Positions 30,459 to 52,555 of a stretch of 64,000 bases of DNA are shown here, in pieces. Both the position numbers and the translations under genes were made by a program. How positions within the stretch are numbered: the first letter of the stretch is position 1; the number at the start of each line of letters is the position of its first letter. Where the stretch lies: NCBI GenBank assembly GCA_003154195.1, contig PMCS01000008.1:15366-79365 (forward strand), read 5' to 3'. This DNA is from Candidatus Omnitrophota bacterium (GTDB taxonomy: Bacteria; Omnitrophota; Gorgyraeia; Duberdicusellales; 4484-171). Under the pieces are notes generated by a model, which searched no databases, was not told the DNA's origin, and saw only the letters and a program-made list of their open reading frames with translations.

Positions 30459-31339
30459 CCGTCCTCCAGATTTTTCATAGTGGTGAATACTCCGAATGAC
30501 TTGATCAGGGCTTCCTCCAGGGTTGCGTCATTGCGCAAACAAAACAAAAAATAGTTAAAAGTATCCCGGCCGCGGTCTTTGATCATAAAATTAATCAGCG
30601 AGAAAGATTCAATATAAAAAATATCGGCATATTCTTGAGGCTGACTATTTAAAAATAAACCGTCGATTTTATTCAATTTTTCAAAAGGTATATAGTTATT
30701 ATCTCTAATCATAACTTTCGCGGCCGGTAGATATCCCTGATGGGCTCCGTTATTATATTTATCTTCAATATACATCGCGACAGCTTCATCAAGCCATAAA
30801 GGAAAATTCTTTTCGCCGACGTACTCCCGGAAAATTATATGCGTCAGCTCATGCGCCAATATCGCAGAAAATCGATTCTGATTCGGGTAGGTATAAATCA
30901 GGCGTTCCCGGTAATCGACGCACGCCCCGGACCATTGGGGGCAATTAAAACGCCGGGAATAATCATCGCGGTCCCTGGCGACATAAATTTTTGCCCTGTT
31001 TTCCCAAAGCCAAAGCTTACCCCTGATGAGGTTGAATTCCTCCGTAATCCGGGAGAAAAACTGTTCCGCGATATCCCTTATGCCATAGGCATAGTTATCG
31101 CCCACCGCCGGAGAATAATAAATAATGAAATGATCACACTTTAATTCCTTAAAATCAGATTCCTGCGCGAAACAAATAATGGAACAAAAAATACAAAATA
31201 AAAAAAATTGACAAAATACCTTAGTCCACAGGTTAATCAGATTATTCAGATTAATTTTTACAGATTTTTTATGATTTTTTTCTGTATAATCCGCAAAACC
31301 AGTCAATAACGTTTTTATCTTTAAAATATTTTTAACCAT
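30434..31339 (-). CDS. Membrane-anchored putative zinc metallopeptidase (HExxH...E) embedded in the dcw cluster
   Basis: Transmembrane helix FCQFFLFCIFCSIICFA, then AILAHELTHIIF with WLDEAVAMYIE about 20 residues later (gluzincin-like). Overlaps the murC start by 25 bp. Confidence 0.4.
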   Translation of the reverse strand: MVKNILKIKTLLTGFADYTEKNHKKSVKINLNNLINLWTKVFCQFFLFCIFCSIICFAQESDFKELKCDHFIIYYSPAVGDNYAYGIRDIAEQFFSRITEEFNLIRGKLWLWENRAKIYVARDRDDYSRRFNCPQWSGACVDYRERLIYTYPNQNRFSAILAHELTHIIFREYVGEKNFPLWLDEAVAMYIEDKYNNGAHQGYLPAAKVMIRDNNYIPFEKLNKIDGLFLNSQPQEYADIFYIESFSLINFMIKDRGRDTFNYFLFCLRNDATLEEALIKSFGVFTTMKNLEDGWKKFYQE

Positions 31340-31359
31340 TGATTTTTCCGATAAATCTG

Positions 31360-31432
31360 TCCCGTTACCCTGAATGAAATATTTAGGTGCGGGACGCCCC
31401 GAACCTAAATAGATTATCTATGGTAACGGGGC
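31360..31432. repeat. Intergenic palindrome with cccgtta/taacggg termini
   Basis: gccccgttaccctgaatgaaatatttaggt ... acctaaatagattatctatggtaacggggc. Confidence 0.7.
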
Positions 31433-44285: not shown

Positions 44286-44925
44286 CTATGTTTTCAGGAT
44301 TAAACGCGTCGCTAAGTTTGAAATGGCCGACGCTTAAGCGCTTTATATGGATCATATGCGCGCCGCAACCCAGGACATCACCGATATCTTCAGCAAGCTT
44401 GCGAATATAAGTACCCTTGGAACAACGCACGTAAAATTCAACCAACGGCGGGTCTATTTTTAAAATTTCTATCGCGTAGATTTTAATTCTGCGAGGGTCT
44501 CTCTCGATAGTTATACCCTTACGGGCCAAGTCGTATAAACGTTTGCCTTTAACTCTTAAGGCGCTGACCATGGGAGGTATCTGGTCTATTTCGCCCACAA
44601 AAGAAGCAAAAACTTCCCTGATTTTTTCTTCGGTTACACCGCCAAACCCGCTGGAACGCAGAACTTTGCCTTGCGAATCTCCGGTAGAAGTAACCTCGCC
44701 TAATTTCAAAATACCCACATATTCTTTATCGAAATGAACGAATTTGGAAAATAGTTTAGTGGAACTGCCTACCAGAATAATCAAAAGGCCTTCGGCTAAA
44801 GGATCGAGGGTACCGGCATGTCCCACGCGCTTAATCGCTAATTTCCTGCGCACGATATCAACAACATCATGGCTGGTAATACCCTGGGGCTTATTGACTA
44901 AGATGATCCCTTCTTTATTAACCAT
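44254..44925 (-). CDS. truB: tRNA pseudouridine(55) synthase
   Basis: GHAGTLDPLAEG catalytic motif. Confidence 0.9.
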   Translation of the reverse strand: MVNKEGIILVNKPQGITSHDVVDIVRRKLAIKRVGHAGTLDPLAEGLLIILVGSSTKLFSKFVHFDKEYVGILKLGEVTSTGDSQGKVLRSSGFGGVTEEKIREVFASFVGEIDQIPPMVSALRVKGKRLYDLARKGITIERDPRRIKIYAIEILKIDPPLVEFYVRCSKGTYIRKLAEDIGDVLGCGAHMIHIKRLSVGHFKLSDAFNPENIDESCLQKAAL

Positions 44926-44982
44926 GCAAACCTGTAATTATTTGAGTAGCCGGGGATTACCTGCTTTCAAATATTCTCCCTA

Positions 44983-45088
44983 TCATTTTAAATTGAACAT
45001 TGAACATTTGCCAATGATCATTGAAAGAATTAATTATTTTTCTCTTCTTCCATTTTAAAATGATAATTAATCAATGCTAAATTTAAAA
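44983..45088. repeat. Core AT-rich hairpin repeat, copy 2
   Basis: tcattttaaattgaacattgaacatttg...cattttaaaatgataattaatcaatgctaaatttaaaat. Confidence 0.75.
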
Positions 45089-45113
45089 TTAACCTGGCTA
45101 TCTGAGGGTTTAG

Positions 45114-46082
45114 CTATTTCTTCTTATACCCATTTTTGTAAATATAGGCGTGTTTTTTTACAAAAGAAATGACTTTATCTTCTATCGCCTTAAGATTGCC
45201 CTCGACGGTAGTACCGCTGGCCCGTCGATGCCCGCCGCCGCCGAAAAATTTGGCGATTTTGTTGACATCGACGTACTCGCGGGAACGGAAATTAACTCTT
45301 ACTTTATTGGCGCTGATTTGTTTAAAAATCATAAATACTTCAACACCCTTCAACAACCGCATGATGGAAAAAATAATCTCGGTGAGGTCAAAACCTTTGT
45401 CCTCCCATTTGTCGGCGGCAACCCAGCAAATTTTACGCGACATATCAAGTTTCAAGCTCGCCATAAGGCCGGTAATAAGTTTTAAATCATGGATCTCGCA
45501 GGCGCTATGGATATTCTCGAATACCCTGTTGGGTTTGATATTATGCTTCATTAAATCAGCGATAATTTTATGCACCCGGGAATCGGCGCTGCTGAAGGTA
45601 AAATTTCCCGTATCGGTAGCGATGCCGGTATAAAGGCATAACGCTATCTCGTCATCCATCACGCCGAATTGCCGGCAAAGCTCATAAAGCAACTGGCAAG
45701 CGGAACTGGCCTGCGGCGCAATCCAATTTATATCGCCGAAGTAAGTATTACTGATGTGATGGTCGATGTTGACAATGCAATCGGCGCAACCCAGGGAATC
45801 CTTGACCTTCCCCGTGCGGGAAGAATCGGAACAGTCTAAAACTATTACCGTGTCAAAACGCTCTTTCCTGAAGGTATTTTTTATCATCCGGCTGGAAGGA
45901 AGAAATTTATAGATATCGGGAACCGCGTCGTTAAGGTAAAGCACAGCTCTCTTTTTAAGCTTCTTAAGGAGAGCGTACATAGCCAATGCCGAGCCGAGAG
46001 CGTCGCCTTCGACATTCATATGCGTAGTAATAAGAAAACTCCGGCTTGATTTTATTTTATTTATTATCTTCTTTATTATCAT
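45114..46082 (-). CDS. DHH/DHHA1 phosphoesterase (NrnA-like oligoribonuclease/pAp phosphatase)
   Basis: HMNVEGDALGS, DHH and C-terminal GGGH (DHHA1). Start taken at MIIKKI. Confidence 0.75.
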   Translation of the reverse strand: MIIKKIINKIKSSRSFLITTHMNVEGDALGSALAMYALLKKLKKRAVLYLNDAVPDIYKFLPSSRMIKNTFRKERFDTVIVLDCSDSSRTGKVKDSLGCADCIVNIDHHISNTYFGDINWIAPQASSACQLLYELCRQFGVMDDEIALCLYTGIATDTGNFTFSSADSRVHKIIADLMKHNIKPNRVFENIHSACEIHDLKLITGLMASLKLDMSRKICWVAADKWEDKGFDLTEIIFSIMRLLKGVEVFMIFKQISANKVRVNFRSREYVDVNKIAKFFGGGGHRRASGTTVEGNLKAIEDKVISFVKKHAYIYKNGYKKK

Positions 46083-47799: not shown

Positions 47800-47878
47800 C
47801 ATAGTGTCATCACATCAAAGCGTCAAAGTTTAATCCCTCTAAAACACTCTGACACTATGACGCTCTGACGCTTTGCCT
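47800..47878. repeat. Intergenic word-palindrome (catagtgtc / gacgctctgacgcttt family)
   Basis: gagtcatagtgtcatcacatcaaagcgtcaaag ... ctctgacactatgacgctctgacgctttgcc. Confidence 0.7.
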
Positions 47879-48765
47879 CACTTTGCCCTCGGATGATACA
47901 ACGTATGTATCTGTTTTAATCTCGCCTGATTTATATGCGTATAGATTTGCGTTGTGGTAATACTGACGTGGCCCAGCATCTCCTGGACGCTGCGTAAATC
48001 AGCGCCATGTTCCAATAAATGCGTAGCGAAGGAATGCCGTAGAGTGTGCGGCGTAGCGTGTTTTTTTATCCCTGCCGCCCGCACGCACTTTTTTATCATT
48101 TTCCAGATACTTTGCCGGGTAATGCTCCTGGCTCCCTGGGCGAGAAAAAGAGTATCCATAGTTTTACCTTTAAGGAGTTTCGGCCTCGCTTCCGCGATGT
48201 ATCTGCTTAAAAAATGAGACGCGGTCTTGCCTAAAGGGACAATCCGTTCCTTAGAACCTTTTCCTTTGCATTTAACGAATCCGACATCCAGATTAAGGTC
48301 ATTAACCCTGAGCGACGCCGCTTCCGAGATGCGCAGGCCTGACGCGTACATTATTTCCAGAATCGCTTTATCGCGCAGCCCCTGGGCGCTGTTTAAGTTG
48401 ACTTGCTTAAGGAGGCGGTTGATTTCTTCAGAAGTCAAGAAAGAAGGAATCTTCTTATCCAGCTTCAGCGATTCCATTAAATCGGTAGGGTCGTTCGCCA
48501 CGGCCTTTTCCCTCAGTAAAAACCGATGAAAACTTTTTACCGTAGACATAACACGAGAAATACTGACCACCGCCATTTTGCCGCGTAAAAGAAATAAAAA
48601 ATCGCCTACATCTTTACGGCTGATTTGAGAAAGGCTGTCGATATTCTTCGACTTAAGATATTTGAAATATTTTCCCAAATCCTGGGCATAGGCGTCGAGA
48701 GAGTTTTTCGCCAACCCTTTCTCTACCGTTAGATAATCGATAAATGCCTGCAGGTAAATATCCAT
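47878..48765 (-). CDS. Tyrosine site-specific recombinase XerC/XerD
   Basis: Catalytic R...HxxR...Y region HATPHTLRHSFATHLLEHGADLRSVQEMLGHVSITTTQIYTH. Confidence 0.85.
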   Translation of the reverse strand: MDIYLQAFIDYLTVEKGLAKNSLDAYAQDLGKYFKYLKSKNIDSLSQISRKDVGDFLFLLRGKMAVVSISRVMSTVKSFHRFLLREKAVANDPTDLMESLKLDKKIPSFLTSEEINRLLKQVNLNSAQGLRDKAILEIMYASGLRISEAASLRVNDLNLDVGFVKCKGKGSKERIVPLGKTASHFLSRYIAEARPKLLKGKTMDTLFLAQGARSITRQSIWKMIKKCVRAAGIKKHATPHTLRHSFATHLLEHGADLRSVQEMLGHVSITTTQIYTHINQARLKQIHTLYHPRAK

Positions 48766-48770
48766 AAATT

Positions 48771-48900
48771 AAGGGTATCGGGATATTGGGACATCGGGAT
48801 CTGGGTATTGGGGGACTGGGATATCGGGCATTTCCTAATTCCCCAATTTCCCAATCTCCCAATCTCCAAATCCTAATCCCCTGATATCCTAAATATCCTG
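48771..48900. repeat. Intergenic word-palindrome (gggatattggg / cccaatctccc words)
   Basis: gggtatcgggatattgggacatcgggatctgggtattggggg ... ccccaatttcccaatctcccaatctccaaatcc. Confidence 0.7.
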
Positions 48901-49512
48901 AAGAAACTGATTACTCTCTTTTTCTCTCCCCACCGTTGTCTTCGGGCCATGGCCGGGATAGACAACTGTATCGGGAGGCAAAACCATGATCTTCTGCTTG
49001 ATGGCTTTAATAAGGCTGTCGTGCGAACCGTAAGGCAAATCGGTCCTGCCCACCGAATCAAAAAATAACGTATCGCCGCTGAAGAGCCAATTATTTAGTT
49101 TTATACAAATCCCGCCGGGGGTATGGCCGGGGGTATGGATAATATTCAACACCGACGCCTGGAATGACAGCGAAGAACCGTCCTCAAGCGCCTTAGCCTC
49201 TTTTTTTATCGTAATCGGCCGGGAAAAAAATTCCGAACCGTTCAAGCCGGCATCATCAAGGCAAGGCTTATCGTCGACGTGAATATAAACCGGGCAATCA
49301 AAATTATCCAAACCGGCGATATGGTCGAAATGGCCGTGGGTCAGAATAATAAAATCCAAAGAAAGTTTTTCTTTTACGATAAATTCCTTGATTTTTTCGC
49401 TTCCGTCAGGCGTATCAATCAGAAAAGCTTTCTTCGCCTTTTCATCAATTATAAGGTAAGCATTCGTCCCCAACGCGCCAAGAGTGAATTTTTTTAATGT
49501 CAGCTCATCCAT
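48889..49512 (-). CDS. MBL-fold metallo-hydrolase
   Basis: HxHxDH motif ILTHGHFDHIAG. Confidence 0.7.
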   Translation of the reverse strand: MDELTLKKFTLGALGTNAYLIIDEKAKKAFLIDTPDGSEKIKEFIVKEKLSLDFIILTHGHFDHIAGLDNFDCPVYIHVDDKPCLDDAGLNGSEFFSRPITIKKEAKALEDGSSLSFQASVLNIIHTPGHTPGGICIKLNNWLFSGDTLFFDSVGRTDLPYGSHDSLIKAIKQKIMVLPPDTVVYPGHGPKTTVGREKESNQFLQDI

Positions 49513-49522
49513 CTGTTTACTA

Positions 49523-49957
49523 TTACCGATTTTTTCCGGTGATTCTTTCTGTTGCCATAATATTATTTTTTGCCGCCTGGATAAGACGCTGGGCGCCGTC
49601 TTTGGAGAATTTGCGTTTGTAGTCAGCTAGCTCGCGTAAATTCATCCCCTGCATAAAATTATCATAATATTCTCCGGGTAATTCCTTACTTTCGCCATAC
49701 AAAGCTAAAATCGCCCGGCCTAAATAAATGTGGCTTTTCTCGCGAAACTTTTTGGCATAAAGAAGCGCGCGCGCCGCGTGAAACATAGCATAGTAAGCTT
49801 GCACCGTCGCCCACTTGTATCTTTCCTCGTCAAATGAATGCTGGGCATCGGCTAAATCTTCCCTGGCGGTTTCCAATTCTTTCGCCACAAGCCTGGGGCC
49901 GTCGGAAAAAGAAACGATTCTCCCCTTTTCGATAGCTTCCCTGAGATTATTCTTCAT
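49523..49957 (-). CDS. HEPN-domain protein (toxin partner of MNT)
   Basis: 144 aa helical protein. C-terminal LRELADYKRK fits the HEPN R-x4-6-[HY] motif. Overlaps the upstream MNT gene by 11 bp. Confidence 0.65.
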   Translation of the reverse strand: MKNNLREAIEKGRIVSFSDGPRLVAKELETAREDLADAQHSFDEERYKWATVQAYYAMFHAARALLYAKKFREKSHIYLGRAILALYGESKELPGEYYDNFMQGMNLRELADYKRKFSKDGAQRLIQAAKNNIMATERITGKNR

Positions 49958-50540
49958 GTTCCGGTTTTCCCTCCCATAAAGTTATCCCTTTTTTTATTTG
50001 TTCAAAAAAATGCTTATCGTCTTTGCGCGAACTAACCATTTCCAAAGGATCATAAATGACGGCGTTGATATAATTATCCGCGTGGTTAAATTTAGCGATA
50101 ATTTTCTCGACAGCTTCTTTCTCGTCGGTTTTTACAAACAAATCAATGTCGCTGCGGCTGGTGTTTTCTCCGCGGGCGCAACTGCCGAATAACGTTATTT
50201 GATAAGAATAGGGTTTAAGTTTTTTTAAAAGCGGCTGCAAGGAAAGAAAATTTTCGAACATCTTGAAGTGTTTCAAAAGCGGGCTGTCTTCGTTGACTTT
50301 ATATAGAAATAGATTTCCCCGGGGCGTCCGGTTAACAACCTCCAGTTCCAGGAGAAGCCGCAACGCCTGATTGGTCGCGCCTTTGCTTGTAGAAACCGCC
50401 TTAGATATCTCCGATGCCGAAAAATTATCGGCGGAATTCAAAGCGAAAAAAGATAAAATCTTTAACGGCACGGGGTTATACAGAATATCCTTTAAGTTAT
50501 GGGTTTTGCTATCGTTCATTGCATTATCCTCATCGTCCAT
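49947..50540 (-). CDS. wHTH plus minimal nucleotidyltransferase (MNT) antitoxin-type protein
   Basis: NT motif LFGSCARGENTSRSDIDLFV, i.e. GS-x9-13-D-x-D. Confidence 0.7.
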   Translation of the reverse strand: MDDEDNAMNDSKTHNLKDILYNPVPLKILSFFALNSADNFSASEISKAVSTSKGATNQALRLLLELEVVNRTPRGNLFLYKVNEDSPLLKHFKMFENFLSLQPLLKKLKPYSYQITLFGSCARGENTSRSDIDLFVKTDEKEAVEKIIAKFNHADNYINAVIYDPLEMVSSRKDDKHFFEQIKKGITLWEGKPEHEE

Positions 50541-50720
50541 TATAATGAACGATAGACTTGTGTCAACTATTATATCAGAAAGGTAAGCTTGGGCAGAGGT
50601 TTAACTTGGTGGAATAGTAAGAGAAATAATCAAATAATTATTTATTCTATAACGATAATCAGCCGCCTAAGCCGCCTGCGGCCAAATTGTGCCGCGGTTC
50701 AGGTCGGCTGGATTTTATGT

Positions 50721-51386
50721 TTAAGTTTTTGGTATAAAATCATGCCAATCAGGCCCAATGCATTTTTTAATATCGAAATCCAGTCGTGATTTTGGCCAAT
50801 ATCTTGAAATTAAATTCTCGTAAGTTTCTGTTACAGACCAACGTGGCAAAACTGACGTTTCTCCGTGCGAAGTAAGCGTGGCGGCATTGACGCAAAATCT
50901 ATTTTGTTGAAAGCAAACATTATTCATAACTGATTGTTCAAGGGTACCAAAATTATCATTGTCGTATGGATCTGTTGGCGCAAAATGTGCTGAAACTTTA
51001 TTGCGCCATTTCTTCAGTTCTGGAATGACAGACTCGACGTAAGAATTGCATTCAGTTTTAATTTTGTTCTTATTATTAACAATGTCTAATGTTGTCCAAG
51101 AGTTGGTATTGAGTGTTTTTATTAGCCCTACTAGTCTTACAAAATTTACCATTGATGTGCTAAACCAGTGGAATGTGCATGGAATTATTGGATCCATTTT
51201 TGCGAATATTTCAAAAACTTTAACATTTGGATTGGGCGGCGTTTTTTTACCTTCTTCAATTTTGATTATTAAAGCCAATCGAAATAACCCATGAGGCATG
51301 AAATTGAGAGCATGGGGATTCTTTATTGGAAGATTTTTAAGATCTACCGTTATGTTATCAATGCAGTCTATTGTGATTTTGTTCAT
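50721..51386 (-). CDS. Hypothetical protein in an AT-rich islet; possible HEPN-like R-x5-H motif
   Basis: 221 aa. Local composition is much more AT-rich than the flanking genes. KWRNKVSAHF contains R-x5-H. No other recognised motif. Confidence 0.3.
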   Translation of the reverse strand: MNKITIDCIDNITVDLKNLPIKNPHALNFMPHGLFRLALIIKIEEGKKTPPNPNVKVFEIFAKMDPIIPCTFHWFSTSMVNFVRLVGLIKTLNTNSWTTLDIVNNKNKIKTECNSYVESVIPELKKWRNKVSAHFAPTDPYDNDNFGTLEQSVMNNVCFQQNRFCVNAATLTSHGETSVLPRWSVTETYENLISRYWPKSRLDFDIKKCIGPDWHDFIPKT

Positions 51387-51656
51387 ATTTATTAACTTAA
51401 CAATTAATATACGACAGTCCTATTTGTTAATATTATTTGAAATTTTTTCGCCAGAGAAGCGTCTTTTAGCTAATAATAGCTCAAAAACACCAAAAATCAA
51501 AGGATTTCTACCGGCTTATGTCGTCTTTGCTATGTAATGTAATGATATACGGCAGTCGTATATTGTGGGGTTTTTGGCAAAATTATGGGAATCGGATATA
51601 AAATAACATTTTTGCCGTAATTTCTCGGGTTCTCGGAATAAGCGGAAAATCCTTCC

Positions 51657-52400
51657 TTAATAATTGACCTTTTGCAGGTAAAGACCACTGGCCGGCGCCG
51701 GCTCATTATGGTAAGGGACTTTACGAATGATTATACTTTTTGCCTGGGCTAAAGTTAATTTACCGGAACCGGTCTTAACCAAAAACGAAACAATGTTTCT
51801 TGCCATATTGTGCATGAAGCCATCAGCTTCGATATCAATGTAGACAAAAGTACCCTTATTTTTTATCGCGATATTTTTTATGTCCCTGACGCTGTTTTTA
51901 TAATTGTCCGGGTGTTTGGCAAAAAGAGAGAAATCCTGTTTACCGGCCAGCAATCTTGCCACGGCGCGCATCCGCTCGAGGTCCAGCGCCCGGCCCAAAT
52001 GCCAGCAAAAGTTATTCTGAAAAACCGAAGGGTCTTTTTTATTCAAAATAATATAGCGATAAATTTTTGATTTGACGTTGAAGCGGGCGTGAAAATCCGG
52101 GGGAACTTCCTTAACCTTTTTTACCCTGATATCTCCGGGCAAAAAAGTATTCAATGCCTGTTTTATATTTTTAAACGGGATACGCGAATCGGTTTTAAAA
52201 TTAATCGATTGTGCTTTCGCGTGCACCCCGCGGTCGGTGCGCGAGGAATAGATTATCCTGATTTTACGGTTAAACAGCTTCTCCAATGCCCGCTCAACCA
52301 TTTCCTGAACGGTAATCTCTCCGGCATGATTTTTATCCTGCAGCTGAAACCCGAAATAATTTGTCCCCACATACTCCAATTCGATAAAAATATTACGCAT
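51657..52400 (-). CDS. truA: tRNA pseudouridine(38-40) synthase
   Basis: IELEYVGTNYFGFQ and RTDRGVHA catalytic Asp motif. Confidence 0.9.
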   Translation of the reverse strand: MRNIFIELEYVGTNYFGFQLQDKNHAGEITVQEMVERALEKLFNRKIRIIYSSRTDRGVHAKAQSINFKTDSRIPFKNIKQALNTFLPGDIRVKKVKEVPPDFHARFNVKSKIYRYIILNKKDPSVFQNNFCWHLGRALDLERMRAVARLLAGKQDFSLFAKHPDNYKNSVRDIKNIAIKNKGTFVYIDIEADGFMHNMARNIVSFLVKTGSGKLTLAQAKSIIIRKVPYHNEPAPASGLYLQKVNY

Positions 52401-52555
52401 ACAATAGGATTATAACAGAAAGGCGCATTTTGTCATTTTAACAAAATGCGCCTTTTTTGTTTAAGAATCTATTTTTATTATCTTTACGCACCAAACGCAT
52501 TTCCCCGATGCGTTTGGTAATTAAATTATTTTTGCCGGAGTATTACCGGCAAAAA

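What the first reader, a model, noticed from the sequence alone, without database searches (positions are those of the whole stretch)
49523..51656. AT-rich islet: unknown 221-aa protein with an R-x5-H motif upstream of an MNT-HEPN toxin-antitoxin pair, near xerC/D
The segment 50600-51650 is markedly more AT-rich than the flanking housekeeping genes, suggesting acquisition. It encodes one 221-aa protein with no recognisable domain except KWRNKVSAHF, a possible HEPN-type R-x4-6-H. Immediately downstream are the MNT and HEPN genes, overlapping by 11 bp. MNT has the motif GSCARG...SDIDL, and HEPN has LRELADY. A tyrosine recombinase sits 1 kb further on. Upstream of the 221-aa gene are two roughly 19-bp direct repeats, atatacgacagtcctat and atatacggcagtcgtatat, about 120 bp apart. 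Together this looks like a small defence or addiction islet, possibly an Abi-like HEPN RNase.
Basis: partly seen in the sequence, partly recalled or inferred. Interest (0 to 1): 0.55.

Follow-up and report, generated by a model that had tools for sequence, protein, structure and literature searches.

The report
Orphan HEPN-like defence gene beside MNT-HEPN pair
An AT-rich, horizontally acquired single gene in an Omnitrophota genome belongs to an unannotated family whose only invariant residues are an R-x5-H pair; it is most likely an AbiU2-like HEPN ribonuclease for phage defence, and it sits next to, but works independently of, an MNT-HEPN toxin-antitoxin-like pair.

Summary
ORF221 (50721-51386, minus strand), the KWRNKVSAHF motif, the MNT/HEPN genes overlapping by 11 bp and the two upstream repeats are all present. 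The stretch 50614-51613 is the most AT-rich kilobase of the window.

Only ORF221 and its upstream spacer are compositionally foreign. MNT and HEPN use host-typical codons. The nearby recombinase is housekeeping XerD. No att-like flanking repeats and no empty site were found.

ORF221 belongs to an unannotated family of about 530 clusters at 50% identity. Across 127 diverse members, only R128 and H134 are invariant. Weak HEPN_AbiU2 matches recur in 26 of 127 members, and no other Pfam family matches more than one member. Relatives are lone genes in defence islands, prophages and plasmids, and some are fused to TPR repeats or duplicated in tandem. None lies next to an MNT-HEPN pair.

Two confident AlphaFold models found no significant structural neighbour. 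HEPN membership is therefore likely but not proven.

The MNT-HEPN pair is a wHTH-MNT plus an AF0298-type HEPN (R-x4-Y, no catalytic His). It matches PADLOC candidate PDC-M05 and has its own consensus promoter and operator.

Verdict: a new family of a known kind, of moderate interest.

The parts
51545..51563 (.). Upstream repeat copy 1, ATATACG-GCAGT-CGTATAT. It is a perfect 7-5-7 palindrome and a candidate operator, 159 bp upstream of the ORF221 start.
   Evidence: Only two direct matches exist in the 64 kb, where 0.08 are expected. It is not found upstream of homologues in other organisms.
51473..51500 (-). Weak sigma-70-like promoter candidate (TTGATT-16-TATTAT, 9 of 12) between the two repeat copies.
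   Evidence: This is a consensus match only; its function is inferred.
51407..51423 (.). Upstream repeat copy 2, ATATACGACAGTCCTAT. It matches copy 1 at 15 of 17 positions and ends 21 bp before the ORF221 ATG.
50721..51386 (-). ORF221: a 221-aa member of an unannotated family. It is a putative AbiU2-like HEPN-superfamily RNase and single-gene defence effector. It is AT-rich and compositionally foreign.
50985..51005 (-). Codons for R128-N-K-V-S-A-H134, the R-x5-H dyad. These are the only two invariant columns among 127 diverse family members.
   Evidence: invariant R128 and H134. One search places them at the C-terminal end of helix 122-135, before a lower-confidence loop.
50660..50710 (-). GC-rich hairpin directly after the ORF221 stop codon. 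It is a probable terminator that separates ORF221 from the MNT-HEPN unit.
   Evidence: -29.2 kcal/mol, z -3.15. One search lists a terminator-like site at 50674-50660.
50539..50566 (-). Perfect sigma-70 consensus promoter (TTGACA-16-TATAAT, 12 of 12) for the MNT-HEPN operon.
50511..50553 (.). Three ATGRACGAT half-sites: an inverted pair around the -10 box and a third on the probable start codon. They are a candidate auto-operator for the wHTH of the MNT protein.
   Evidence: All three matches in the 64-kb window fall within these 43 bp, where 0.93 are expected for the whole window.
49947..50540 (-). wHTH-MNT protein (197 aa as an ORF). The probable start is M8 at 50519 behind a GAGGA, giving 190 aa. 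It has an ArsR-like wHTH at about residues 15-85 and a minimal nucleotidyltransferase with G119-S-x2-R-G...D131-x-D133.
   Evidence: searches (NTP_transf_2 2.6e-10, Polbeta 8e-10; PDC-M05A 5.4e-23), (gene callers give 190 or 197 aa).
49523..49957 (-). HEPN protein (144 aa) of the AF0298/UPF0332 type. It has R108-x4-Y113 in place of R-x4-H, and an alternative His76.
   Evidence: PF05168 5.5e-14, 52.8 bits; 2hsb 2e-6, His aligned; PDC-M05B 1.2e-3.

Best explanation
Two independent conflict modules lie side by side between truA and an MBL-hydrolase/xerD block in a Candidatus Omnitrophota chromosome.

**Module 1: ORF221.** This is a horizontally acquired, monocistronic gene. It has an AT-rich leader with two operator-like palindromic repeats and a terminator hairpin. 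It encodes a member of an unannotated protein family that is most likely a divergent AbiU2-like branch of the HEPN superfamily.

Inferred mechanism: the protein dimerises so that two R128-x5-H134 motifs form a metal-independent RNase site. It stays inactive until phage infection, then cleaves RNA and aborts the infection. Its conserved beta-rich N- and C-terminal parts would act as the sensing or regulatory part; in relatives a fused TPR domain may do this.

**Module 2: wHTH-MNT plus HEPN.** This is an overlapping two-gene unit of the AF0298-type HEPN-T kind, matching PADLOC candidate PDC-M05. It has host-like composition and its own consensus promoter. It is probably auto-repressed through the wHTH binding the ATGRACGAT sites.

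**What is shown.** Gene anatomy, composition, family conservation, genomic contexts, domain matches and promoter/operator sequence patterns.

**What is inferred.** RNase activity, dimerisation, the phage trigger, the defence phenotype and operator function.
For: **Motif**
- Among 127 diverse members, only R128 and H134 are invariant. N129 (90% or more in the 20-sequence alignment) and K130 are strongly conserved.
- R-x4-6-H followed by a polar N/D/H is the HEPN signature (PMC3710099).
- The motif lies at the end of a helix before a loop in two AlphaFold models with pLDDT 90.8 and 83.9. That paper places the motif at the end of helix 3, at the start of the loop.
- The core is all-alpha, with extra helices between the second long helix and the motif helix.

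**Database signal**
- Pfam HEPN_AbiU2 is matched weakly by 26 of 127 members (best 9e-4). Every other Pfam family is matched by one member only.
- The matches cover the motif region.
- As controls, NCBIfam and PADLOC show no family recurring in more than 3 members.

**Architecture of relatives**
- One relative is a tandem duplication of the domain plus TPR. Several others carry C-terminal TPR.
- This matches the way HEPN domains work as dimers, and the reported Sel1-repeat and R-M association of AbiU2.

**Genomic context of relatives**
- After hsdM-hsdS.
- Between an HNH gene and an Abi_C gene, with a ParB-methylase nearby.
- Next to a DUF4011 helicase.
- Near RT-PDDEXK and RES genes.
- Near a Lit-like peptidase and an antitoxin.
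- After TIR and caspase genes on a Shewanella plasmid.
- As a moron between terS and the integrase in a prophage.
- In 6 IMG/VR contigs beside integrases, Mu transposase, methylases and Mrr.

**Mobility and independence**
- The gene is AT-richer than its flanks in 10 of 11 loci and in the window.
- No conserved partner gene and no nearby paralogue were found.
- The two modules have separate signals: a hairpin after ORF221, and a 12-of-12 promoter with clustered half-sites before MNT.
Against: - No significant structural match to any HEPN structure, or to anything else, in PDB or BFVD for two confident models.
- All AbiU2 matches fall below Pfam's gathering score (best 21.3 bits against 26.8). 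They span only about 30-50 residues around the motif. They may therefore reflect motif resemblance alone.
- Because the members are related to each other, the recurrence is not 26 independent observations.
- Profile searches of PDB sequences found nothing relevant.
- There is no experimental evidence for this family.
- No antitoxin or immunity partner is evident, so how self-toxicity would be controlled is unknown.
Confidence: 0.6

Rival explanations
1. ORF221 is a conflict or defence protein carried by mobile elements, but it is not a HEPN domain. It would be a new alpha/beta fold whose R/H dyad resembles the HEPN motif by convergence. Its chemistry would differ, for example another metal-independent phosphodiesterase or a ligand-binding site.
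For: - Two confident models have no significant neighbour in 350,542 PDB chains or in BFVD.
- The AbiU2 similarity is below threshold and confined to the motif region.
- The conserved beta-hairpin and C-terminal beta/alpha part (D7, W183, R195, W197) are not HEPN features.
Against: - The motif form (R, then N, x5, H), its position at a helix end, the helical core, the tandem duplication, and the TPR and R-M associations all match HEPN expectations.
- HEPN_AbiU2 is the only family that recurs.
- HEPN families are known to be hard to link beyond the motif (PMC3710099).
Confidence: 0.2
2. ORF221 is a working third component of the MNT-HEPN system. For example, it could be a second HEPN toxin neutralised by the MNT, so that the three genes form one acquired islet.
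For: - The genes are adjacent and on the same strand in the window.
- The arrangement is fixed in all 11 contigs of this species.
- Both ORF221 and the partner carry HEPN-type motifs.
Against: - None of 17 other family loci has an MNT or HEPN neighbour.
- Composition differs: ORF221 codon-usage z is -2.89, against +1.09 for MNT and +0.36 for HEPN.
- A stable hairpin follows ORF221, and a perfect promoter with its own operator precedes MNT.
Confidence: 0.05
3. ORF221 is a solitary type II restriction endonuclease of the SinI type.
For: Weak matches of the window protein to RE_SinI (E 0.024, 14.4 bits) and to PADLOC REase_II (E 0.0015), both over residues 67-150.
Against: - Both matches are below cut-off and are seen in only 1 of 127 family members.
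- No methyltransferase lies next to the gene in the window.
- The invariant residues are R and H, not the acidic/lysine set of PD-(D/E)xK nucleases.
Confidence: 0.02
4. ORF221 has no conflict role. It would be a lineage-sporadic accessory or decaying gene, and its AT-richness and contexts would be incidental.
For: - One strain variant carries an in-frame 41-aa deletion that removes H134.
- No family has a known function.
- Several contexts (L009, L032) are uninformative.
Against: - About 530 representative clusters share strongly conserved motifs.
- The gene is intact and identical in 10 other contigs of the species.
- Most contexts include defence or mobile-element genes.
Confidence: 0.1

Closest known systems
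AbiU2 (Pfam PF18734 HEPN_AbiU2), a lactococcal abortive-infection HEPN family
   Same: - A conserved R-N-x-x-x-(x)-H-type motif at about two-thirds of a roughly 200-residue helical domain.
- It is the only Pfam family with recurrent weak matches (26 of 127 members).
- Lone genes associated with R-M operons and with TPR/Sel1-type repeat proteins.
   Different: - No member reaches the Pfam gathering score (best 21.3 against 26.8 bits).
- Similarity is limited to about 30-50 residues around the motif.
- ORF221 has extra conserved beta elements at both ends.
- Whether the spacing in bona fide AbiU2 proteins is also x5 was not checked, because no AbiU2 sequences were available.
Other single-gene HEPN defence proteins (AbiD/AbiF Abi_C, AbiJ, AbiV, ApeA, integron-cassette HEPN)
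   Same: - Stand-alone genes in defence islands or prophages with no antitoxin and an R-x4-6-H motif.
- One relative sits next to an Abi_C gene.
- One member gives a weak HEPN-like_int match, E 0.0055.
   Different: No sequence or structure match to any of these at a significant level.
Type VII toxin-antitoxin HepT/MntA (DUF86 HEPN plus MNT)
   Same: The window's second module has the same order: an MNT gene first, overlapping a downstream HEPN gene, with intact GS...DxD nucleotidyltransferase residues.
   Different: - The HEPN is PF05168/AF0298-type, not DUF86.
- It has Y113 where the catalytic His should be.
- MntA NCBIfam scores 29.5 bits against a cut-off of 60.
- The MNT carries an N-terminal wHTH.
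PADLOC candidate system PDC-M05 (nucleotidyltransferase plus HEPN; archaeal-enriched)
   Same: - The wHTH-MNT matches PDC-M05A over nearly its full length (5.4e-23).
- The HEPN matches PDC-M05B weakly (1.2e-3).
- The architecture is as described in PMC12988326.
   Different: - The antiviral role of PDC-M05 is itself unconfirmed.
- The M05B match is marginal.
- The host here is bacterial (Omnitrophota).

Membership tests
HEPN superfamily (ORF221) | Conserved R-x4-6-H motif with a polar residue (N/D/H) after the R. | tested here: met
   WR128-N-K-V-S-A-H134. R and H are the only invariant columns in 127 diverse members, and N129 is conserved in 90% or more of the 20-sequence alignment. The criterion comes from PMC3710099.
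HEPN superfamily (ORF221) | [quoted passage not shown] | tested here: inconclusive
   The predicted helix order fits: H26-48, H67-94, insert H100-120, motif helix H122-135, loop, H146-154. Foldseek found no significant HEPN match for either model, and model coordinates could not be inspected.
HEPN superfamily (ORF221) | Significant profile match to an established HEPN family. | tested here: not met
   The best AbiU2 score is 21.3 bits against a gathering score of 26.8. Sub-threshold matches recur in 26 of 127 members. PDB profile searches found nothing.
HEPN superfamily (ORF221) | Metal-independent RNase activity dependent on the R and H. | not testable with these tools
   Needs biochemistry.
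AbiU2 (PF18734) | Genomic association with R-M operons and Sel1/TPR-type repeat proteins; lone gene. | tested here: met
   hsdM-hsdS-homologue. TPR fusions and a TPR neighbour. The criterion comes from Table 1 of PMC3710099.
Integrative genomic island (whole 49523-51656 segment) | Deviant composition across the segment, flanking direct repeats, an adjacent dedicated integrase, and empty sites in relatives. | tested here: not met
   Only ORF221 and its leader deviate in composition. No flanking repeats were found. The recombinase is XerD. All 11 contigs of the species carry the same arrangement, and no closer relatives were available.
Type VII TA HepT/MntA (MNT-HEPN pair) | DUF86-type HEPN toxin with R-x4-H, and an MntA-family adenylyltransferase above the curated cut-off. 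| tested here: not met
   The HEPN is PF05168 with R108-x4-Y113. MntA NF047752 scores 29.5 bits against a cut-off of 60.
HEPN-T, AF0298/UPF0332 type (PF05168) | Pfam score above the gathering score; the motif R is kept, the motif H is lost, and an alternative conserved His lies in the insert before helix 3. | tested here: met
   PF05168 scores 52.8 bits against 22. The best PDB match is 2hsb (AF0298) at 2e-6, with His76 aligned to its His and RELADY aligned to REESDY. The feature is described in PMC3710099.
PADLOC PDC-M05 | Adjacent M05A nucleotidyltransferase and M05B HEPN genes. | tested here: inconclusive
   M05A matches at 5.4e-23 over positions 3-187 of 201. M05B matches only at 1.2e-3 over positions 11-69 of 147.
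XerD housekeeping recombinase (47878-48765) | Score above the TIGR02225 equivalog cut-off. | tested here: met
   360 bits against a cut-off of 329.6. It is therefore not an islet integrase.
Type II restriction endonuclease SinI | Pfam RE_SinI above the gathering score, with the match shared by family members. | tested here: not met
   14.4 bits against 22, and only 1 of 127 members matches.

The most novel reading that the evidence does not exclude
The ORF221 family is a structurally new kind of single-gene anti-phage effector, not a HEPN domain. It has about 530 clusters, no Pfam, NCBIfam, PADLOC or PHROG model, and no structural neighbour despite pLDDT 91. Its R/H dyad would sit in a fold not yet seen, and its conserved beta-rich ends (or fused TPR arrays in relatives) would sense infection.
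Probability: 0.2. Interest if true: 0.6.

Novelty: new member of a known kind. Interest (0 to 1): 0.35.

Why it matters
If the reading is right, this adds an unannotated and fairly widespread family (about 530 clusters at 50% identity) to the single-gene HEPN/Abi defence repertoire. The family occurs in bacteria, a few archaeal bins, plasmids and prophages. No current annotation or defence-finding library covers it.

It also provides a clean natural example in a barely studied phylum, Omnitrophota. The family's tandem-duplicated and TPR-fused relatives suggest how sensing may be coupled to the nuclease.

The neighbouring wHTH-MNT/AF0298-type HEPN pair is an example of PDC-M05, a common but unvalidated candidate system. 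It comes with an easily testable promoter-operator layout.

None of this overturns current ideas. The value lies in annotation and in candidate discovery.

Tried and rejected
- **Structure searches.** Foldseek of two AlphaFold models against PDB, and of one against BFVD, gave nothing significant. The suggestive Csx1-Crn2 top hit (E 0.47) did not recur.
- **PDB sequence and profile searches.** Only coiled-coil noise came back.
- **Restriction-enzyme reading.** The SinI/REase_II matches are confined to the window protein.
- **Conserved partner or paralogue near family members.** None found.
- **Empty-site or synteny test.**
  - The genome contigs and metagenome-contig scans found only relatives at 32-39% identity.
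  - All contigs carrying the identical truA have the same arrangement.
- **att-like flanking repeats.** None are convincing. The D10 pair (49299 and 51578) matches at only 17 of 23 positions, and one copy lies inside the MBL gene.
- **Upstream repeats in other organisms.** They are absent upstream of homologues elsewhere.
- **Leader RNA.** The fold of the ORF221 leader is only mildly stable (z -2.3), and no Rfam family matched.
- **Wider word-indexed search.** A second search with the 127-member alignment added almost nothing.
- **Profile-profile test against AbiU2.** I could not obtain bona fide AbiU2 sequences, so this was not done.
- **Annotated collections.** tblastn against plasmids and phages found a single relative on a Shewanella plasmid and no phage record.
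Full report
**1. What is in the sequence**

All genes in this part of the window are on the minus strand. In the direction of transcription they are:
- asd
- truA (51657-52400)
- ORF221 (50721-51386)
- a 197-aa MNT protein (49947-50540)
- a 144-aa HEPN protein (49523-49957)
- an MBL-fold hydrolase (48889-49512)
- a tyrosine recombinase (47878-48765)
- a CCA-adding/poly(A) polymerase-type enzyme

- KWRNKVSAHF lies at ORF221 residues 126-135.
- FGSCARG...SDIDL is in the MNT.
- LRELADY is in the HEPN.
- MNT and HEPN overlap by 11 bp.
- There are two related 17-19-bp sequences upstream of ORF221.

The repeat pattern ATATACGNCAGTCNTAT occurs only at 51407-51423 and 51545-51561 in the 64 kb, where 0.08 matches are expected by chance. 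The upstream copy is a perfect 7-5-7 palindrome.

**2. Composition**

The window averages 43.6% GC.
- The stretch 50614-51613 has 34.4% GC. It is the lowest 1-kb stretch in the window (z -3.1).
- ORF221 has the lowest GC (0.348, z -3.05) and the lowest GC3 (0.302, z -3.70) of 56 ORFs.
- ORF221 has the most atypical synonymous codon usage of 45 long ORFs (z -2.89).
- The MNT gene (GC3 0.470, codon z +1.09) and the HEPN gene (GC3 0.497, z +0.36) are indistinguishable from the host.

The compositional islet is therefore ORF221 plus its 270-bp leader, not the whole segment.

**3. The recombinase, the host and the islet boundaries**

The recombinase scores 360 bits on the XerD equivalog model, whose cut-off is 329.6. 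It is the housekeeping XerD and is separated from the HEPN gene by the MBL gene.

The closest truA relatives (at most 64% identity) are from Candidatus Omnitrophota bins.

Eleven further contigs from other metagenomes share 99.4-100% DNA identity with the window where they overlap (ten of them found through their identical truA protein). Where they extend far enough, they show the same order: truA, ORF221, MNT, HEPN, MBL, xerD.

No empty site was found. The scans of genome and metagenome collections found nothing close enough for synteny. No flanking direct repeats bound the segment.

**4. The two transcription units**

A GC-rich hairpin follows the ORF221 stop codon directly (50710-50660, -29.2 kcal/mol, z -3.15).

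A perfect TTGACA-16-TATAAT promoter lies at 50566-50539, just before the MNT gene. Its -10 box overlaps the first ATG of the ORF. The likely start is therefore M8 at 50519, behind a GAGGA; some gene callers give 190 aa.

The 9-mer ATGRACGAT occurs three times in the whole window, and all three lie within 50511-50553. Two form an inverted pair around the -10 box and the third sits on the start codon. This is the layout of an auto-repressed toxin-antitoxin operon, with the N-terminal ArsR-like wHTH of the MNT protein as the probable repressor (inference; wHTH matches).

ORF221 has only a weak promoter candidate (51500-51473), which lies between its two repeats.

**5. The MNT-HEPN pair**

- *MNT.* It matches NTP_transf_2 (2.6e-10) and Polbeta (8e-10). 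It also matches PADLOC candidate PDC-M05A over nearly its full length (5.4e-23).
- *HEPN.* It matches PF05168 (52.8 bits). Its best solved relative is AF0298 (2hsb, 2e-6).
- *Active-site residues.* As described for the AF0298 group in PMC3710099, the motif arginine is kept but the histidine is lost (R108-x4-Y113). An alternative His (H76) aligns with the AF0298 His.
- *Not type VII.* The MntA model of the type VII HepT/MntA system is not reached (29.5 bits against 60).
- *PDC-M05.* This is a nucleotidyltransferase-plus-HEPN candidate that is enriched in archaea. Its antiviral role is unconfirmed (PMC12988326).

"MNT-HEPN toxin-antitoxin-like pair" is a fair description. "Type VII TA" is not established.

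**6. The ORF221 family**

The word-indexed search found 21 relatives. The exhaustive profile search found 531 representatives at E of 0.001 or better, 411 of them at 1e-10 or better. The family is therefore moderately large.

It has no model in any of the libraries searched:
- Pfam
- NCBIfam
- PADLOC
- PHROGs

In an alignment of 127 diverse members (mean column identity 18%), the only invariant columns are R128 and H134. Nearly invariant are D7, G33, E45, W74, F75, R84, Y116, K130, A133, P140, D144, S152, W183, R195 and W197.

**7. Is ORF221 a HEPN domain?**

Evidence for:
- The motif has the HEPN form: R, then a polar N, with a spacer inside the 4-6 range, then H.
- In two AlphaFold models (pLDDT 90.8 and 83.9) the motif closes a helix (122-135) and is followed by a lower-confidence loop. 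It is preceded by two long helices and a helical insert. This is the arrangement the HEPN survey describes.
- HEPN_AbiU2 is matched weakly by 26 of 127 members, and every other Pfam family by one member only. The same census in NCBIfam and PADLOC gives no family with more than three members.
- One relative (P0022) is a tandem duplication of the whole domain followed by TPR repeats. Several others carry C-terminal TPR repeats. This fits the dimeric working of HEPN sites and the repeat-protein association reported for AbiU2 and LA2681.

Evidence against:
- All AbiU2 matches are below the gathering score and cover only about 30-50 positions around the motif.
- Foldseek found nothing significant in PDB or BFVD.
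- PDB sequence-profile searches were empty.

I rate HEPN membership as likely (about 0.65-0.7) but unproven.

**8. Genomic contexts of relatives**

| Locus | Context of the family member |
|---|---|
| L001/L002 | Directly after hsdM-hsdS |
| L003 | Between an HNH gene and an Abi_C gene, near a ParB-methylase |
| L004/L005 | Between an HATPase/DUF4325 gene and a DUF4011-helicase-MTES_1575 gene |
| L006-L008 | Near a GNAT gene and HicB |
| L009 | Before a TPR gene, with PrimPol-DnaB nearby |
| L010/L011 | Near a methylase, an HTH-RT-PDDEXK set and a RES toxin pair |
| L028 | After TIR and caspase genes, before a resolvase, on Shewanella baltica plasmid pS18501 |
| L029-L031 | On the opposite strand, between the small terminase and the integrase of a prophage |
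| L033 | Near a Lit-like Peptidase_U49 and an antitoxin |
| L035 | Next to a phage-type lysozyme |
| L046-L051 | Six IMG/VR contigs; neighbours include integrases, Mu transposase, C5 and D12 methylases, Mrr, CI repressor, resolvase and Zot |

There is one copy per locus. No neighbouring paralogue and no recurring partner were found. No locus has an MNT or HEPN neighbour.

The gene is AT-richer than its surroundings in 10 of 11 loci. This is the behaviour of a mobile, self-contained defence or exclusion gene.

**9. Most likely mechanism**

Shown: anatomy, conservation, context and composition.

Inferred:
- ORF221 forms a dimer whose paired R-x5-H motifs make a metal-independent RNase site.
- It is held inactive until infection.
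- It then cleaves host or phage RNA to abort the infection, as proposed for AbiU2, AbiD/F and other HEPN Abi proteins (PMC3710099).
- The conserved N-terminal beta-hairpin and C-terminal beta/alpha part (LPxWSxTE...RxW) are candidates for the regulatory or sensing part. In relatives, fused TPR arrays may take this role.
- The two palindromic repeats that bracket the weak promoter may bind a host repressor that keeps expression low.

The MNT-HEPN pair is a separate, probably older resident.

**10. Verdict**

"Abi-like HEPN RNase" is the best reading for ORF221, and the MNT-HEPN call is right at the domain level. However:
- the segment is not one islet;
- XerD is irrelevant;
- no att sites exist;
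- the HEPN partner lacks the catalytic His.

This is a new, unannotated family of a known kind. It is useful for annotation and as a defence candidate, but it is not surprising to a specialist. Interest 0.35.

Noticed in passing
window about 50869-50991 (inside ORF221); locus L034: A contig of the same species from another metagenome (99.9% identical) carries an in-frame 123-bp deletion between short TTC/GCAC microhomologies. It removes residues 133-173, including H134, and leaves WRNKVS-HGE. Ten other contigs have the intact gene. This could be a natural inactivation of a costly gene or an assembly artefact.
   Followed up: partly
window 50511-50553: All three ATGRACGAT sites of the 64-kb window cluster here. 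Two form an inverted pair around the -10 box of a perfect sigma-70 promoter and the third lies on the probable MNT start codon. This is a likely auto-operator for the wHTH of the MNT protein.
   Followed up: partly
window 52401-52555 (asd-truA spacer): Three consecutive near-perfect hairpins with 11-17-bp stems and 7-nt loops. The 170-nt fold has -61 kcal/mol and z -8.3, and none of 200 shuffles folds as well. There are only sub-threshold Rfam matches (RNA-OUT, STnc40, RefA9). They could be stacked terminators or a repeat element.
   Followed up: partly
window 48889-49512: The MBL-fold hydrolase gene starts 10 bp after the HEPN stop codon. In the precomputed tables it has a faint Anti-Pycsar_Apyc1 Pfam match. 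It does not reach the GloB cut-off (80.5 bits against 200.8).
   Followed up: no
protein P0022 (599 aa, from the representative library): This relative is a tandem duplication of the whole ORF221-type domain, with two WRNKVGAH motifs, followed by TPR repeats. Other relatives have one domain plus TPR, or unknown extensions of about 170-270 residues.
   Followed up: partly
L029-L031 (7001-7660) and L046 (1719-2390): Family members sit as opposite-strand or integrase-proximal accessory genes in prophages. One lies between the small terminase and the integrase. Another lies two genes from an integrase at the end of a viral contig.
   Followed up: partly
window 31112-31411, 44894-45193 and 409-1408: Other short AT-rich stretches (GC 0.28-0.36) in the window. 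They were not examined.
   Followed up: no
L028 (Shewanella baltica OS185 plasmid pS18501, 14-2942): A TIR-domain gene, a caspase-family gene and an ORF221 relative lie in a row next to a resolvase on a conjugative plasmid. This may be a small defence cluster.
   Followed up: no
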